Of a stretch of DNA of 64,000 bases, positions 5,714 through 9,809 are shown piece by piece. Source of the DNA: Alphaproteobacteria bacterium (GTDB lineage Bacteria; Pseudomonadota; Alphaproteobacteria; UBA828); contig CAXXVO010000005.1 of NCBI GenBank assembly GCA_963422645.2, positions 192,001 through 256,000 of the forward strand, read 5' to 3'. The first letter of the stretch is position 1; the number at the start of each line of letters is the position of its first letter. A program made the position numbers and the translations under genes. The notes under the pieces were generated by a model, which saw only the letters and a list, made by a program, of their open reading frames with translations, had not been told where the DNA came from and did not search any database.

Positions 5714-5806
5714 CAGCGCGCGAACACGGAGCGCCACACCCCGCTTAATCGCGGCACGCTCGTGTGCCACAGTAGGGCTCGCACTCTGGGACAGGGAGGG
5801 TGCGGG

Positions 5807-6682
5807 ATGACAACGGGCGGCACAGAGCGGCCCAGCGGCGTTCGTTACGAGCCCAATGATAGACCGCCGCCGGCGCTCGCCGGTGGGCTCGGCCTGCAGC
5901 TCGCTATCCTCTGCATCGCCGGCGTCGCACTGACGCCCGCAATCGTGGTCCGCGCCGCCGGCGGGACAGAGTCTTATCTCTCGTGGGCGGTCTTCGGCGC
6001 CGTCCTGGTCAGCGGCATCACCTCGGTCCTGCAAGCGGTCCGCGTCGGGCGGATCGGGGCCGGCTACGTCCTCGTCATGGGCACCTCCGGGGCTTTCATC
6101 GCGATTTGTGTGGGCGCGATTGCCCAAGGCGGGCCGGCGATGCTCGCCACGCTGGTGGTGATCTCCTCATTCTTCCAATTCCTGCTCGCGTGGCGGCTTT
6201 CGCTGCTCCGGCGAATCCTGACACCAACGGTCTCGGGCACTGTCATCATGCTGATACCGGTGACGGTGATGCCGATCGTCTTCGACATGCTGACCCACGT
6301 GCCTGAGGGCACGCCGGCGCTGGCCGCGCCGCTCTCGGCGCTTGTGACGGCGTTGGCGATCTGCGCTATCTCGCTGAAGGCGCAGGGTGTGCTGCGCCTC
6401 TGGGGGCCGGTGATCGGCATCGTCGCCGGCTGCGGGGTTGCCGGGTACTTCGGCCTTTACGATGTCCGCAGCATCGCTGCGGCAACATGGGTCGGCCTGC
6501 CGCAAGGCGGATGGCCGGGCTTCGACCTCGACTTCGGGCCGGTCTTCTGGGGACTGCTGCCGGGTTTCGTGTTCGTGACCCTGGTCGGCGCCATCGAGAC
6601 GGTGGGCGACGGCATCGCCATCCAGCGGGTCTCCTGGCGCAAGCCGCGGGCGGTGGACTTTCGCGCAGTGCAGGGCGCGGTC
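5807..6682 (+). pseudogene. NCS2 (xanthine/uracil) permease, 5' half, interrupted by the recombinase element
   Basis: Multi-TM protein with LQLA, MGTSGAFI and IETVGD motifs; breaks at ...RAVQGAV. Confidence 0.88.
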
Positions 6683-8335
6683 GGGACGCCCTGAACGCAA
6701 AAGGCAACCTTCGCCTTCGGTGCTGTGGTTGCCGGGTTTCGACGGGTCTGGACCGCCGCCTGGCGATCCCGAGATTGGGATTGAATGGCGAATGGTGATT
6801 TTGTCCTCGGTGACCAACACCTCCTTCACGATGAGCCGGACGATGCGCTGCCGTTCGGCGATGTCCAGGGTTTCGGCGGACGAGTGCAGCCGCGCCAGAA
6901 AGCCGGTCAGCGTCTCGGCGAGCCGGAGATAGGTCTCGCGATCCTTCGCCCGATCGACGGTGGATTGCAGTTCGCGATTCAGAGCCTGATCCTGACGACG
7001 GAGCTCGGGCGTTCTGTCGCGCAGTTCATCGATTGTAATCAACTCCTCCTGATAGGCGTTGACCAGGCGGTCGATGCTTTTTCGGACCCGGATCAGACGG
7101 TGCCGCAGGTCGTTCTCGCGCTGCTGGTTTGGATCGGAAGCGCGGGCCGCCTGTAGTCGCCGGTCGATCTCGGCGCCGATCAGTGCTGGATCCTCGAGCA
7201 GGCGGACCACTTCGCCCCAGACGACGTCATCGAGCAAGTCCTGGCGCACCGGCCGACTGTCGCACACCGGTCCGTTGAGATGGCGCCAAGAGTCAGAACC
7301 CAGGCAGCGATAATAGGAGATCTTGCGGGCACTCGTCTGGGCCGATGTGCGAGACAGCGCGTAGCCGCATTTGCCGCACGAGACCAGTCCCTGGAGCACG
7401 CTGGGCGTCTTCGTGCGACGCGGCGCGTGGATCTTGTTCATCTCCAGCCGCTCTTCGGCCAGGGCGAAGGTCTCTTCGCTGACGATCGCCGGCACCGGGA
7501 TCTCGATCCACTCCTCACGCGGTTTTTCGTGACCGCCGGTCGTGCCGCTGGCCACGCCGCGGCGCAGGCGCAGAGGACGTGTCACACATTTACGCGGCAT
7601 CTGGCGGGTCTTGCCGAAACAGGCTTTCCCCTTGTACGCCGGATTGCGGAGCATCGCCCACACCGTCGAGCGTTCCCAGCGCGAGCGCCCGGTGGAGGTG
7701 GGTACCGCGCGCTCATTGAGCCTGCAGGTGATCGCGCCGATGCTCATGTGATCGCAGGTGTAGCAGCGGTAAACCTCGCGAACCACCGACGCCTGCGGCT
7801 CGACGATTTCGTAGAACGCATCGCTGTCCGGGGTTTTCTTGTGGTAGCGGTAGCCATAGGGCGCGCCGCCGAGGACGGCGATTTCGCCGCGTCGCGCCCG
7901 ATGTCGCTTGCCGCGCCGGGAACGCTCCAGGATTTGCGCGCGCTCGTATTCCGCAATCATGCCCTGGAACTGGACGAGCAGATGATCTTCCGGGGTTTCC
8001 ATCGACGGCGCTCTCAAGAACACGGTCTCGACGCCCTGACGGGCCAGCTCCTCGATGATCAGAACCTGGTAGGCATAGCGCCGGCTCATACGGTCCGGGG
8101 CATGGACCAGCACCGTGTCGATGCGCCCTTCCGCGGCGAGATCCCTGACCCGCTCGAGCCCCGGGCGTTCGAGAACGGCGCCGGTATAGCCGTCATCTTC
8201 AATGATCATGTCGGGCGCGACGCTGTAACCGTGGTCCTCGGCGTAGGCGATCAGGGCCTCGGTCTGGCTCGCTATCGTGTTGTCATCTCTCTGCCGCTCG
8301 CCGGAGACCCGCGCGTAAATGGCTGCGATCTTCAT
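6167..8335 (-). CDS. Large serine recombinase; element-encoded part 8335-6685, ORF reads on into host DNA
   Basis: AIYARVS catalytic Ser, DRMSR, recombinase domain, CGKCG..YYRC..C zinc ribbon and coiled coil. Confidence 0.93.
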   Translation of the reverse strand: MKIAAIYARVSGERQRDDNTIASQTEALIAYAEDHGYSVAPDMIIEDDGYTGAVLERPGLERVRDLAAEGRIDTVLVHAPDRMSRRYAYQVLIIEELARQGVETVFLRAPSMETPEDHLLVQFQGMIAEYERAQILERSRRGKRHRARRGEIAVLGGAPYGYRYHKKTPDSDAFYEIVEPQASVVREVYRCYTCDHMSIGAITCRLNERAVPTSTGRSRWERSTVWAMLRNPAYKGKACFGKTRQMPRKCVTRPLRLRRGVASGTTGGHEKPREEWIEIPVPAIVSEETFALAEERLEMNKIHAPRRTKTPSVLQGLVSCGKCGYALSRTSAQTSARKISYYRCLGSDSWRHLNGPVCDSRPVRQDLLDDVVWGEVVRLLEDPALIGAEIDRRLQAARASDPNQQRENDLRHRLIRVRKSIDRLVNAYQEELITIDELRDRTPELRRQDQALNRELQSTVDRAKDRETYLRLAETLTGFLARLHSSAETLDIAERQRIVRLIVKEVLVTEDKITIRHSIPISGSPGGGPDPSKPGNHSTEGEGCLLRSGRPDRALHCAKVHRPRLAPGDPLDGDAVAHRLDGADQGHEHETRQQSPEDRPEVEVEARPSALRQADPCCRSDAADIVKAEVPGNPAAGDDADHRPPEAQHTLRLQRDSADRQRRHKRRERRGQRRRALRHVGQHVEDDRHHRHRYQHDDSARDRWCQDSPEQRKPPREQELEE
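6685..6704 (+). repeat. Left terminal inverted repeat (att half-site)
   Basis: GACGCCCTGAACGCAAAAGG is the reverse complement of 8899-8918. Confidence 0.95.
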
Positions 8336-8489
8336 GGTCGTCTCCTATGTCCTGCGCTCGGACCGGGATTTTGTGAGTTTGATCGGGCACCAGGATCGCG
8401 TAGGCGTTGTGGAGTTTGGCGTCGAGCAGACGATCGAAGGCATAAGCGAGGTGAACCGTGGGCCGAGCGCCCAAGCGACGTTCAGCCAT
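8283..8489 (-). CDS. Small accessory protein of the LSR element
   Basis: 68 aa ORF overlapping both the upstream ORF stop and the recombinase start; core VHLAYAFDRLLDAKLHNAYAILVP. Confidence 0.6.
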   Translation of the reverse strand: MAERRLGARPTVHLAYAFDRLLDAKLHNAYAILVPDQTHKIPVRAQDIGDDHEDRSHLRAGLRRAAER

Positions 8490-8811
8490 GCCGATCCGCG
8501 TCCGATAAAAAGCGTCTCAGCGCCCGCGCGACGATCTCCCCGATGGAGTGGCCGCTGCTCCTGGCGTGGGCTCGCAAGGTCTCCGCCAGAGTGCCTGGAA
8601 TCTTGATGGTGATCGGGATCAGCTCTTCGGTCGGCTCGGCCGGCTGGCCCATGGCGCGCGCGTCCTGGACGTAGCGATAGGACTGACGCTGCGACAGCCC
8701 GAAGCGCTGCGACAGCCGTGCCACGGCTTCGCTCGCCGTGGCGCCCTGGGCGAGCAGCGTGTAGGCGGCATTGAGCCGCTCGACCTTCTGGGATCTTGTT
8801 GACCGGATCAT
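8482..8811 (-). CDS. HTH plus ribbon-helix-helix DNA-binding protein of the LSR element
   Basis: LSQRFGLSQRQSYRYV is HTH-like; ITIKIPGTLAETLRAHA..SIGEIVARALRRFL is RHH-like. Confidence 0.75.
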   Translation of the reverse strand: MIRSTRSQKVERLNAAYTLLAQGATASEAVARLSQRFGLSQRQSYRYVQDARAMGQPAEPTEELIPITIKIPGTLAETLRAHARSSGHSIGEIVARALRRFLSDADRHG

Positions 8812-8822
8812 TTGCCATAAGA

Positions 8823-8852
8823 ATATTACCGTTTGCGGCGCAAGTCAGTCAA
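8823..8852 (-). promoter_or_regulatory. Sigma70-type promoter of the LSR operon
   Basis: TTGACT-N18-TAATAT on the minus strand just before the HTH/RHH gene. Confidence 0.55.
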
Positions 8853-8898
8853 GGGACGGTCTCGCCATTCCACAATCTGACGTTCGAAGCGGAAGTTA

Positions 8899-8918
8899 CC
8901 TTTTGCGTTCAGGGCGTC
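8899..8918 (-). repeat. Right terminal inverted repeat (att half-site)
   Basis: CCTTTTGCGTTCAGGGCGTC. Confidence 0.95.
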
Positions 8919-9809
8919 AGCGCGGACGGTGTTGGCAACCTGTTCTCCGGCCTGATGGGAACGGTGCCCAACACCACCTATTCCACCAGCATATCCGTCA
9001 CCGCGCTCACCGGCGTGGGCGCCCGCAGCGTGGGCGTTGCACTCGGAATCGCTTTCGTCGTGGTGGCGTTCATTCCCAAGGCGCTCGCCGTCGTGCTGGC
9101 GATACCGGGGCCGGTTGCGGCGGCCTACATCACCGTGCTGTTGGGGCTGCTCTTCGTGGTCGGCATGAGGATCGTCATCCAGGACGGGGTGGACTACCGC
9201 AAGGGCCTGATCGCCGGCGTGTCCTTCTGGATCGGGGTCGGCTTCCAGAACGGCGTGATCTTTCCCGAGCACGTCTCGGGCATCGCCGGCGGGCTCCTGG
9301 AGAACGGCATGACGGCCGGCGGCATGGCGGCGATTCTGCTCACGCTCTTCGTGGAGCTGACGGCACCCCGCCGACGCCGCATCCAGGCGCCCTTCGAGGT
9401 CGCGTCGCTGCCGAAGATCAGGGAGTTCCTGCAAACCTTCGCTTCCCGCAGCGGCTGGGGCGAGGCGATGGCCCATCGCCTGGATGCTGCCGCCGAGGAG
9501 GCGATCCTGACGCTGCTGCGGCACGAGGAAGAGGAAGAGGCGGAGGGAGCGCCGCACCGGAAGCGCCGCCTGCTACTCACCGCCCACAAGGAAGGCGGCG
9601 CTGCGGTGCTGGAATTCATTGCCGCACCCGGCGAGGAGAACGTGGAGGACCGGATCGCGCTGATGGGCGAGTCCTCCGACGATGCGCCCGAGCGGGAGGT
9701 GTCGCTACGCCTCCTGCGCCACCTCGCGTCCTCTGTCCACCACCAGCAGTATCACGACACGGATATCGTCACGATCCACGTGGAGGCCAGGGCGCCCCGC
9801 GCTAGCTGA
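8919..9809 (+). pseudogene. NCS2 permease, 3' half, with a C-terminal degenerate HATPase/RsbW-like domain
   Basis: ADGVGNLFSGLMGTVPNTTYS (NAT-motif region) and LLENGMTAG, followed by a soluble tail. Confidence 0.85.

What the first reader, a model, noticed from the sequence alone, without database searches (positions are those of the whole stretch)
6167..8918. Recombinase has no stop before the element boundary, so its C-terminus depends on integration state
Seen: the LSR frame runs through the left inverted repeat (..GCLLRSGRP) into antisense host DNA, giving 722 aa of which 171 are host-derived. In the reconstructed circle the same frame continues through the right end as P-DALNAKGNFRFERQIVEWRDRPLTDLRRKR and stops at TAA 8828-8826, giving 581 aa. 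That tail crosses the element's own -35, and the stop lies in the -10. The junction codon is Pro with either core (CCC or CCT). Inference: recombination switches the enzyme's tail, which could control directionality or stability. Mycobacteriophage integration-dependent immunity is an analogy, but here the recombinase itself is affected.
Basis: partly seen in the sequence, partly recalled or inferred. Interest (0 to 1): 0.78.

Follow-up and report, generated by a model that had tools for sequence, protein, structure and literature searches.

The report
Recombinase gene completed only in circle
A small jumping gene carries a recombinase gene with no stop codon of its own, so the enzyme gets a random tail when the element sits in the chromosome and a conserved 30-residue tail only when the element's two ends are joined.

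Summary
Window 6685-8918 is a 2,234-bp IS-like element with 30-nt terminal inverted repeats (IRs), a ribbon-helix-helix gene and a large serine recombinase (LSR). It sits in a xanthine/uracil-permease gene.

The LSR frame has no stop inside the element. The same holds in all 5 identical copies in this genome, where the tails are 6, 53, 112, 172 and more than 500 residues. It also holds in 68 of 80 related loci from many phyla; none of the 80 has a natural stop before the IR.

The far end of the element continues the frame for 29-31 codons and stops at the TAA of the -10 box in 49 of 50 elements. That frame alone shows third-position wobble. Its pN/pS is 0.39-0.52, against 1.1-1.5 in the two other frames. 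So the tail is almost certainly translated, which is possible only across a joined-ends (circle) junction.

No circle junction was seen directly, and the tail's function is untested. The usual target of the family is a conserved reverse-transcriptase motif; the window copy sits in a look-alike site.

This scan noted the same family and the same reading earlier on other DNA. I found no published description.

The parts
6685..8918 (-). Whole IS-like element, 2,234 bp; both genes are on the minus strand.
   Evidence: There are 5 copies at 100% identity in the own genome with different flanks. Related elements of 2,216-2,303 bp occur in 49 other loci.
6685..6714 (.). Terminal inverted repeat at the LSR end. 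It encodes the last conserved LSR residues (C/Y-LLRSGR).
   Evidence: pair I1; the IR is conserved across phyla.
8889..8918 (.). Terminal inverted repeat at the head (promoter) end. It encodes tail residues 1-10 in the joined frame.
6686..8335 (-). Large serine recombinase, codons 1-550. Residues 522-550 are a poorly conserved, low-confidence linker plus the IR-encoded motif.
   Evidence: Pfam PF00239, PF07508 and PF13408. Alignment A1 has S11 and R9 invariant. The AlphaFold model has pLDDT below 50 for residues 522-550.
6167..6685 (-). Junction codon (6685-6683) plus 171 host-derived codons and the stop: the tail of the integrated form in this copy.
   Evidence: The other four copies have tails of 6, 53, 112 and more than 500 aa.
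8826..8918 (-). Thirty codons plus TAA that continue the LSR frame if the two ends are joined through a 2-bp core: the conserved tail.
   Evidence: open and stopping at the -10 box in 49 of 50 elements. (codon alignment, wobble, CGN/AGA switches for Arg). (pN/pS 0.39-0.52 in this frame against 1.14-1.47 in the other two). (position 3 most variable in 13 of 20 and 15 of 21 codons).
8823..8852 (-). Promoter-like site: TTGACT, 18-nt spacer, TAATAT. It lies upstream of the RHH gene, and its -10 holds the stop of the joined frame.
   Evidence: The TAATAT box is conserved.
8482..8811 (-). 109-aa protein with a C-terminal ribbon-helix-helix; a putative regulator or accessory factor.
   Evidence: Pfam RHH_1, E 6e-4, just under the curated cut-off.
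6683..6684 (.). Left flanking dinucleotide GG (the crossover core as seen at attL).
   Evidence: Uninterrupted orthologous genes fit a 2-bp overlap.
8919..8920 (.). Right flanking dinucleotide AG (the crossover core as seen at attR). It differs from the left one.
   Evidence: The same AG lies at the right end of copies 3 and 4.
5762..6684 (+). 5' part of the interrupted host permease gene.
   Evidence: Pfam Xan_ur_permease, profile positions 6-263.
8919..9809 (+). 3' part of the interrupted host gene: the rest of the permease plus a HATPase_c_2-like region.
   Evidence: Pfam Xan_ur_permease, profile positions 270-383; HATPase_c_2 just under its cut-off.

Best explanation
Window 6685-8918 is one copy of a recently active, IS-sized transposon. 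Its only enzyme is a large serine recombinase (LSR).

The recombination site lies inside the 3' end of the LSR gene. The element's last 22 bases (part of the terminal inverted repeat) encode the last conserved residues. One base of the next codon is the element's last base, and the 2-bp crossover core supplies the other two.

In an integrated copy the frame runs on into whatever DNA flanks the element, which gives an arbitrary tail.

When the ends are joined (excised circle, or any head-to-tail junction), the frame continues into the other inverted repeat. It then runs through 29-31 conserved codons and stops at the TAA inside the -10 box of the element's own promoter. The complete 581-aa enzyme can therefore be made only from the joined form.

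Shown:
- the stop-less gene;
- the variable tails;
- the conserved, frame-specific, protein-like evolution of the far-end tail;
- the 2-bp overlap at empty sites.

Inferred:
- a circle is the joined form;
- the tail is translated;
- the tail changes the enzyme's behaviour.

My preferred reading of the last point is that the full-length form serves the insertion step. The tail-swapped form made from integrated copies would be a weaker or differently directed enzyme that still excises.
For: (1) Mobility. The own genome holds 5 copies at 100% identity with different flanks. The empty site of the window copy is found in 11 orthologous genes of relatives, and the empty site of copy 3 in two uninterrupted copies of its repeat read in the own genome. 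Both fit a 2-bp overlap.

(2) No stop inside the element.
- All 5 own copies lack one.
- Of 80 related loci (61-88% identity, many phyla), 68 are open through the element end and 2 have early nonsense codons. In 10 my motif search failed: 6 are cut by a contig end, and 2 (L085, L087) are seen to be open.
- Among the 120 best database proteins, no full-coverage hit is shorter than 553 aa and the lengths reach 829 aa.

(3) The joined-frame tail.
- It is open for 29-31 codons and stops in the TAATAT-like box in 49 of 50 elements, and in 37 of 38 distinct sequences.
- The distance from the element end to the box is 87, 90 or 93 nt in those 37, so all indels are whole codons, and they lie at different places.

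(4) Protein-level selection only in that frame.
- pN/pS is 0.52 (22 sequences) and 0.39 (14 sequences), against 1.14-1.47 in the two other sense frames.
- The third position is the most variable in 13 of 20 and 15 of 21 codons (p 0.004 and 0.0004).
- Arg codons switch between CGN and AGA at conserved sites.
- The two other sense frames carry stops in 35 and 38 of 38 distinct sequences.

(5) The element's last base is never T (G 28, C 11, A 10 of 49), so no core can make the junction codon a stop.

(6) The model has LSR residues 522-550 at pLDDT below 50, consistent with a flexible tether before the tail.
Against: - No joined ends were seen. There were none in 80 related loci or in the small contigs. 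None of the 14 proteins that share the tail peptide carries an LSR domain. There were no joints in one isolate DNA run or two metatranscriptome runs, all held only as contigs; the one raw-read run laid no reads.
- The first 30 nt of the tail are the inverted repeat, and the last 30 nt overlap the promoter. Part of the conservation is therefore DNA-level.
- Pairs of related sequences are not independent, so the p-values are rough.
- One element (L076) has a 92-nt spacing that breaks the frame.
- Integrated copies must still excise, so the conserved tail cannot be essential for every reaction.
Confidence: 0.72

Rival explanations
1. The missing stop is incidental. Many insertion sequences have transposase frames that end in or beyond the terminal repeat. 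On this view the far-end 'tail' is conserved only as DNA (recombinase binding site, operator, promoter) and is never translated. The enzyme works the same with any tail.
For: Tail codons 1-10 are the inverted repeat, and codons 23-31 overlap the -35, the spacer and the -10. No junction and no junction-spanning protein was found. Integrated tails vary from 1 to 373 aa in 61 loci, so the enzyme evidently tolerates junk.
Against: DNA-level constraint does not predict several observations. Variability peaks at every third base in one frame only. pN/pS is 0.39-0.52 there against more than 1.1 in the other two frames. Arg codons switch between CGN and AGA. Indels come in whole codons at different places. 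The element's last base is never T.
Confidence: 0.12
2. Suicidal design, as in SSV-type integrases. The tail would be essential for all catalysis, so integrated copies encode a dead enzyme. The element then moves only when full-length enzyme is supplied from a rare joined form or from another copy.
For: The tail is conserved across phyla. Long junk tails (172 aa here, more than 500 aa in copy 3) could well cripple the protein. There is a precedent in tyrosine recombinases (PMC7253208, abstract read).
Against: Serine-recombinase elements move by cut and paste, so the first joined form needs an active enzyme made from an integrated copy. All catalytic, recombinase, zinc-ribbon and coiled-coil parts lie within residues 1-520. 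Five identical copies show recent, repeated movement.
Confidence: 0.1
3. The conserved far-end frame is translated, but as a separate small peptide or as a fusion read in from the target gene, not as the end of the recombinase.
For: Two database proteins with a reverse-transcriptase domain (PF00078) run into the tail peptide. The window itself has a 243-aa ORF (8826..9557) that enters the head from host DNA.
Against: Elements lie in either orientation in their usual target (22 same sense, 13 opposite) and also in unrelated genes, so no flank can supply a constant upstream frame. Codon-like conservation begins directly after the repeat (F11, E/D12, R13). The LSR frame leaves exactly one base, which with a 2-bp core puts it in phase with the tail.
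Confidence: 0.04

Closest known systems
Tn4451/Tn4453 (TnpX) and Tn5397 (TndX), clostridial transposons moved by a large serine recombinase
   Same: A large serine recombinase acts as the transposase. Recombination occurs at a 2-bp sequence. There are several target sites, and no separate directionality factor is needed. (PMC5704250, passages read. Circular intermediate: a cited title seen in its reference list. A promoter formed on the Tn4451 circle: recalled, not checked.)
   Different: This element is only 2.2 kb, with no cargo or mobilisation gene. It has long, near-perfect terminal inverted repeats. Its usual core is AT rather than GA (GA from Table 1 of PMC5704250). It has one preferred target, a reverse-transcriptase motif. 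Its recombinase gene has no stop of its own.
Myxophage Mx8 integrase (IntP/IntX)
   Same: attP lies inside the integrase coding sequence, so integration gives the gene a new 3' end and an enzyme with altered properties (PMC6070905, passages read).
   Different: Mx8 Int is a tyrosine recombinase of a phage with fixed attB sites. Here the enzyme is a serine recombinase of an IS-like transposon with many sites, so the integrated tail is arbitrary.
SSV-type 'suicidal' integrases of archaeal viruses and plasmids
   Same: The recombination site lies within the recombinase ORF, and the gene is whole only in the free circular element (PMC7253208, abstract read).
   Different: Those are tyrosine recombinases split into two inactive halves. 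Here only the last 31 of 581 codons are separated, and all recognisable domains stay together.
Integration-dependent immunity of mycobacteriophages (BPs and relatives)
   Same: attP lies inside a gene, so integration changes a protein's C-terminus and thereby its behaviour (PMC4557955, start of the abstract seen in a search listing; details recalled).
   Different: There the affected gene is the repressor. Here it is the recombinase itself.
Insertion sequences whose expression depends on the circle or on the target (junction promoters of IS911/IS30-type; IS870, whose stop codon is supplied by the target)
   Same: The state of the element decides what transposase is made.
   Different: Those are DDE transposases. 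The effect there is on transcription, or on a stop created at insertion, not a conserved coding tail at the far end.

Membership tests
Large serine recombinases | N-terminal resolvase catalytic domain with the nucleophilic serine | tested here: met
   PF00239, E 1e-31, residues 4-151. S11 and R9 are invariant in 35 aligned sequences.
Large serine recombinases | Recombinase domain, zinc ribbon and long coiled-coil C-terminal to the catalytic domain | tested here: met
   PF07508 and PF13408. C320, C323, C344 and C358 are invariant. The model has long helices at 365-489.
Large serine recombinases | Crossover at a 2-bp core that is identical in the two partner sites | tested here: inconclusive
   Empty sites fit a 2-bp overlap. 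However, the two flanking dinucleotides differ in 22 of 46 elements, and in 3 of the 5 own copies.
LSR transposons of the Tn4451/Tn5397 kind | Several insertion sites in one genome, moved by the LSR alone | tested here: met
   Five identical copies lie at five different sites, and the only other gene is a 109-aa RHH protein. That the LSR alone suffices is inferred.
LSR transposons of the Tn4451/Tn5397 kind | Excised circular intermediate | tested here: inconclusive
   No junction was found in loci, proteins or laid runs. The isolate runs were available only as contigs, which drop rare forms.
LSR transposons of the Tn4451/Tn5397 kind | GA core dinucleotide | tested here: not met
   Flanks are mostly AT, with GC, GT, AC and others also seen.
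Recombinases with the att site inside their own ORF (Mx8, SSV type) | The crossover point lies within the recombinase coding sequence | tested here: met
   Codon 551 straddles the element end in all 5 own copies and in 68 of 80 related loci.
Recombinases with the att site inside their own ORF (Mx8, SSV type) | Tyrosine recombinase chemistry | tested here: not met
   The domains are those of a serine recombinase.
Insertion sequence (general definition, recalled) | Under about 2.5 kb, terminal inverted repeats, only mobility functions, multiple copies | tested here: met
   NCBIfam places the LSR in no curated IS family; the best match is CcrB at 118 bits against a cut-off of 900.

The most novel reading that the evidence does not exclude
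The tail switch is a built-in directionality device that replaces a recombination directionality factor. The full-length 581-aa enzyme, made only from the excised circle, would be tuned for capturing the target and inserting. The tail-less, junk-tailed enzyme made from integrated copies would be tuned for rare excision. The enzyme would thus 'know' the state of its own element through its C-terminus. The weak in-silico docking of the tail onto the enzyme body would fit an intramolecular regulator (score 0.42, best control 0.00; that mark was reached by 58 of 80 solved complexes and 2 of 110 mismatched pairs, but a pass at 0.60 or under is weak; runs agree in at least 53% of contacts, partner pLDDT at least 50).
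Probability: 0.25. Interest if true: 0.9.

Novelty: new variant of a known kind. Interest (0 to 1): 0.78.

Why it matters
Large serine recombinases are major genome-engineering tools, and how they choose between insertion and excision is a central question. In the known cases a separate directionality factor decides.

This widespread family appears to encode the enzyme's last 31 residues on the far side of its own recombination site, so the protein differs between the free and the integrated state. If so, it offers a natural, minimal, single-protein system in which directionality or activity is set by DNA topology. It can be tested directly with three constructs (550, 581 and junk-tailed forms).

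It also extends the 'att site inside the recombinase gene' principle, known for tyrosine recombinases, to serine recombinases and to transposon-like elements with many targets.

There is a practical consequence for annotation. Every database protein of this family carries a meaningless C-terminal extension, and the true C-terminus is missed.

Tried and rejected
1. Search for an assembled junction.
- A degenerate end-to-end pattern and a test for terminal overlap found nothing in any locus held at that point. Contigs of 2.3-2.6 kb that looked like possible circles carry ordinary flanks.
It gave 14 hits, none with LSR domains.

2. Reads.
- Four runs were laid. The raw-read Hi-C run laid 0 reads, so it is no test.
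- The isolate run and the two RNA runs are contigs only and show no joints.
- The RNA contigs hold 95-99% relatives of the element, but by the tool's own caveat this does not show transcription.

3. Complex prediction of the LSR body with the tail: weak support only. Score 0.42, best control 0.00. That mark was reached by 58 of 80 solved complexes and 2 of 110 mismatched pairs, but a pass at 0.60 or under is weak. The runs agree in at least 53% of contacts and the partner's pLDDT is at least 50. I use it only as a lead.

4. An off-centre crossover at the TC that lies 2 nt left of the left end in the window copy would remove the GG/AG mismatch. I rejected it because the other four copies have no TC there.

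5. A 10-bp imperfect direct repeat flanks the window copy, which could suggest a target-site duplication. I rejected this because the orthologous empty sites fit a 2-bp overlap.

6. An antisense ORF as the source of the periodicity. In the window the one antisense frame that would share the tail's wobble position is closed by three stops just inside the head end (read directly from the sequence). The antisense frame that is most often open, 28 of 38 heads, would put its wobble position on the tail frame's first codon position, which is not the most variable.

7. Literature. Searches found no description of an LSR whose ORF spans its own att site, nor of this family. The library lacks most subscription journals, and supplements were closed.

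8. Earlier notes of this scan report the same family and the same reading. They are leads, not evidence.
Full report
WHAT IS THERE

The minus-strand ORF 8335..6167 (722 aa) is a large serine recombinase (LSR) with Resolvase, Recombinase and Zn_ribbon_recom domains. It lies in a 2,234-bp element, 6685-8918, bounded by 30-nt inverted repeats (IRs) that are 90% complementary. The element's only other gene is a 109-aa ribbon-helix-helix (RHH) protein, 8811-8482.

The element interrupts a xanthine/uracil-permease gene. Profile positions 6-263 lie to the left and 270-383 to the right.

Eleven uninterrupted orthologous genes from relatives show that the host sequence is restored if the two bases next to each end are counted once. 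This is the 2-bp overlap expected of a serine recombinase. Eight of them read GG at that place and three read AG.

THE ELEMENT IS MOBILE AND RECENTLY ACTIVE

The genome holds five copies at 100% identity with five different pairs of flanks. Three copies carry one, two or three tandem copies of an IS110-family insertion sequence (PF01548 and PF02371). It sits at the same point between the RHH and LSR genes, window 8369-8371.

In an isolate DNA run the element has about 78x contig depth against 12-23x for its flanks.

THE OBSERVATION

The LSR frame has no stop inside the element. Codon 550 ends at 6686. Codon 551 takes the element's last base plus the two flanking bases. The frame then runs on into antisense host DNA.

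In the five copies the tail beyond codon 550 is 172, 6, 53 and 112 aa, and in copy 3 it is still open after more than 500 aa.

Read in the LSR direction from the first base of the other end (8918 downwards), the sequence gives 30 codons and then TAA at 8828-8826. That TAA is the start of a TAATAT box which, with TTGACT 18 nt upstream, forms the promoter-like site in front of the RHH gene.

IS THE MISSING STOP A FAMILY TRAIT?

The 120 best database proteins are 65-100% identical to the LSR.
- No hit covering the whole query is shorter than 553 aa, and lengths reach 829 aa.
- 95 of the 120 match the strict motif L-[LVIM]-R-[ST]-G near residue 545. What follows is unrelated sequence of 2-281 aa.
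- Most of the other 25 show close variants of the motif in the stretch I printed.

The search for related loci returned 80 loci (61-88% identity) from Alpha- and Gammaproteobacteria, Acidobacteriota, Binatia, Gemmatimonadota, Verrucomicrobiota and others. Of the 80:
- 68 are open through the element end.
- 2 have early nonsense codons, at residues 161 and 89.
- In 10 my motif search failed. Six of these are cut by a contig end. L085 and L087 are open.

Integrated tails in 61 loci range from 1 to 373 aa, with a median of 35.

IS THE JOINED-FRAME TAIL REAL?

Both ends were found for 50 elements, the window included. They are 2,216-2,303 bp long, with a conserved repeat. For 8 further loci no partner end was found within 5 mismatches.

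Frame and spacing:
- In 49 of the 50 the head continues the frame for 29-31 codons and stops in the TAATAT-like box. L076 is the exception.
- Among 38 distinct head sequences, the distance from the element end to the box is 87 nt (1), 90 nt (22), 93 nt (14) or 92 nt (1, L076).
- The extra or missing codons lie at different places in the alignment. Indels are therefore whole codons, and there was more than one event.

Selection:
- Conserved residues are F11, E/D12, R13, I/V15, R20, D27, L28, R29 and K31 in the alignment columns (F11, E12, R13, I15, R19, D25, L26, R27 and K29 in the window's 30-residue tail). They vary almost only at the third base, and Arg switches between CGN and AGA.
- For codons 11 to the end, pN/pS is 0.52 (22 sequences of the 90-nt class) and 0.39 (14 of the 93-nt class) in this frame. 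In the two shifted frames it is 1.14-1.47.
- The third position is the most variable in 13 of 20 and 15 of 21 codons (binomial p 0.004 and 0.0004). The sequences are related, so these p-values are rough.

Other frames:
- The two other sense frames carry stops in 35 and 38 of the 38 heads.
- The antisense frame that is most often open would put its wobble on the least fitting position.

Frames at the junction:
- The LSR frame leaves exactly one base at the element end. With a 2-bp core this is in phase with the tail.
- The element's last base is G, C or A in 49 of 49 elements and never T. No core can therefore turn the junction codon into a stop.

Taken together, a stretch that begins at the very end of the element evolves like coding sequence in the one frame that continues the recombinase. 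I see no way to translate it except across joined ends.

WHAT IS NOT SHOWN

I found no joined ends.
- There are none in the stored loci or the small contigs.
- The 14 proteins that share the tail peptide have no LSR domain. Two are reverse transcriptases read into the head.
- The laid runs show no joints. The only raw-read run laid nothing, and contigs drop rare forms.

Two metatranscriptome runs hold contigs that are 95-99% like the element. This does not prove transcription.

What the tail does is unknown.
- An AlphaFold model of residues 1-550 (mean pLDDT 70.5) shows the usual LSR parts. Residues 522-550 have no structure and pLDDT below 50, so the tail would hang on a flexible tether.
- Docking the tail onto the body gave only weak support: score 0.42, best control 0.00. 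That mark was reached by 58 of 80 solved complexes and 2 of 110 mismatched pairs, but a pass at 0.60 or under is weak. The runs agree in at least 53% of contacts, and the partner's pLDDT is at least 50.

MECHANISM I THINK MOST LIKELY

1. An integrated copy is transcribed from the head promoter through the RHH and LSR genes into the flank. It yields an enzyme with all domains but an arbitrary C-terminus.
2. This form excises the element at low frequency.
3. In the joined form the same transcript now encodes the complete 581-aa enzyme. Its conserved basic tail serves the insertion step or otherwise changes activity.

Steps 1 and 3 follow from the sequence. Step 2 and the role of the tail are inference. 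The rival explanations (pure DNA-level conservation, a suicidal design, a separate peptide) are weighed in their own section.

TARGET

Of 46 elements with both flanks of at least 32 nt, 35 lie in a reverse-transcriptase gene. They sit exactly between the codons for GTPQGG(V) and SP(L)L(A/S)N, in either orientation: 22 in the same sense as the LSR and 13 opposite. Four more have the first motif on one side only, and several of the remaining seven show degenerate versions.

In the own genome, copy 2 has both of its flanks from such a motif and copy 5 has its left flank from one. I read these flanks by eye.

The window copy sits in a look-alike site. The permease reads AVQGAV where the usual target reads TPQGGV.

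COMPARISON WITH WHAT IS KNOWN

As a transposon driven by an LSR it works like Tn4451/Tn5397 (PMC5704250, passages). It is far smaller, has long inverted repeats, a different core and one preferred target.

An att site inside the recombinase gene is known for tyrosine recombinases. In Mx8, integration gives int a new 3' end and changes the enzyme's properties (PMC6070905, passages). The SSV-type integrases are split by integration (PMC7253208, abstract).

Seven full-text searches found no serine recombinase with this layout and no description of this family. Most subscription journals and all supplements were out of reach.

Earlier notes of this scan on other genomes describe the same family, the same target and the same 'complete only when joined' reading. 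One of them is marked as partly fallen on a later check, with no detail given. I reached my reading before seeing them and tested it here independently.

VERDICT

I class it as a new variant of a known kind.

Noticed in passing
window 6683-6684 and 8919-8920; L003/L007, L106, L113; elements in L013-L090: The two dinucleotides that flank an element often differ. In the five own copies they are GG/AG, AA/AG, TG/AG and AT/AT twice, and they are unequal in 22 of 46 family members. For copy 3 the two uninterrupted copies of the target repeat that I read in the same genome (of at least 24 identical matches to its left flank) show AA. The AG on the right therefore came with the element. Serine recombinases are held to need identical cores (recalled). 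One possible explanation is a mismatched overhang that is ligated and then segregates at replication; this is not tested.
   Followed up: partly
window 8369-8371; L103 1970-3734, L104, L105: Three of the five copies carry 1, 2 or 3 tandem units (1,765, 3,534 and 5,302 nt) of an IS110-family insertion sequence at exactly the same point between the RHH and LSR genes. This separates the recombinase from the head promoter. The tandem arrays of a site-specific IS inside another mobile element are unexplained.
   Followed up: partly
L004 (copy 4, left flank) and L008/L105 (copy 5, right flank); L115-L117: In three relatives the DNA that follows the left flank of copy 4 is the sequence found at the right flank of copy 5 on another contig. 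The copies have therefore exchanged flanks, a rearrangement between element copies.
   Followed up: no
elements in L013-L090; own copies 2 and 5: The family's usual target is the DNA encoding the GTPQGGV / SPLLAN motif of reverse-transcriptase genes. It is used in both orientations, mostly with the self-complementary core AT. The element is thus a parasite of other retro-elements.
   Followed up: yes
window 8796-9809 (+) and 8799-8827 (+): A TTG-initiated ORF starts inside the element's head and reads through the right repeat, in frame, into the 3' part of the permease gene. An outward-facing promoter-like site (TTGACC, 17-nt spacer, AATATT) lies at its start. This may be chance, or it may allow expression of the downstream gene fragment.
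   Followed up: no
window 8919-9809 (+): The C-terminal part of the interrupted permease carries a region resembling a histidine-kinase-like ATPase domain (HATPase_c_2, 25.7 bits, just under the cut-off of 27.4). This is an unusual partner for a xanthine/uracil permease.
   Followed up: no
L003 1201-1500 and at least 24 places in G000: Copy 3 sits in a repeat present at 100% identity in at least 24 places of the genome, probably another insertion sequence. Its insertion point resembles the reverse-transcriptase target on the left side.
   Followed up: no
L048 about 2450-2490: A second element head begins about 210 nt after the end of the first element in this 2.9-kb contig, again next to a reverse-transcriptase-like motif.
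   Followed up: no
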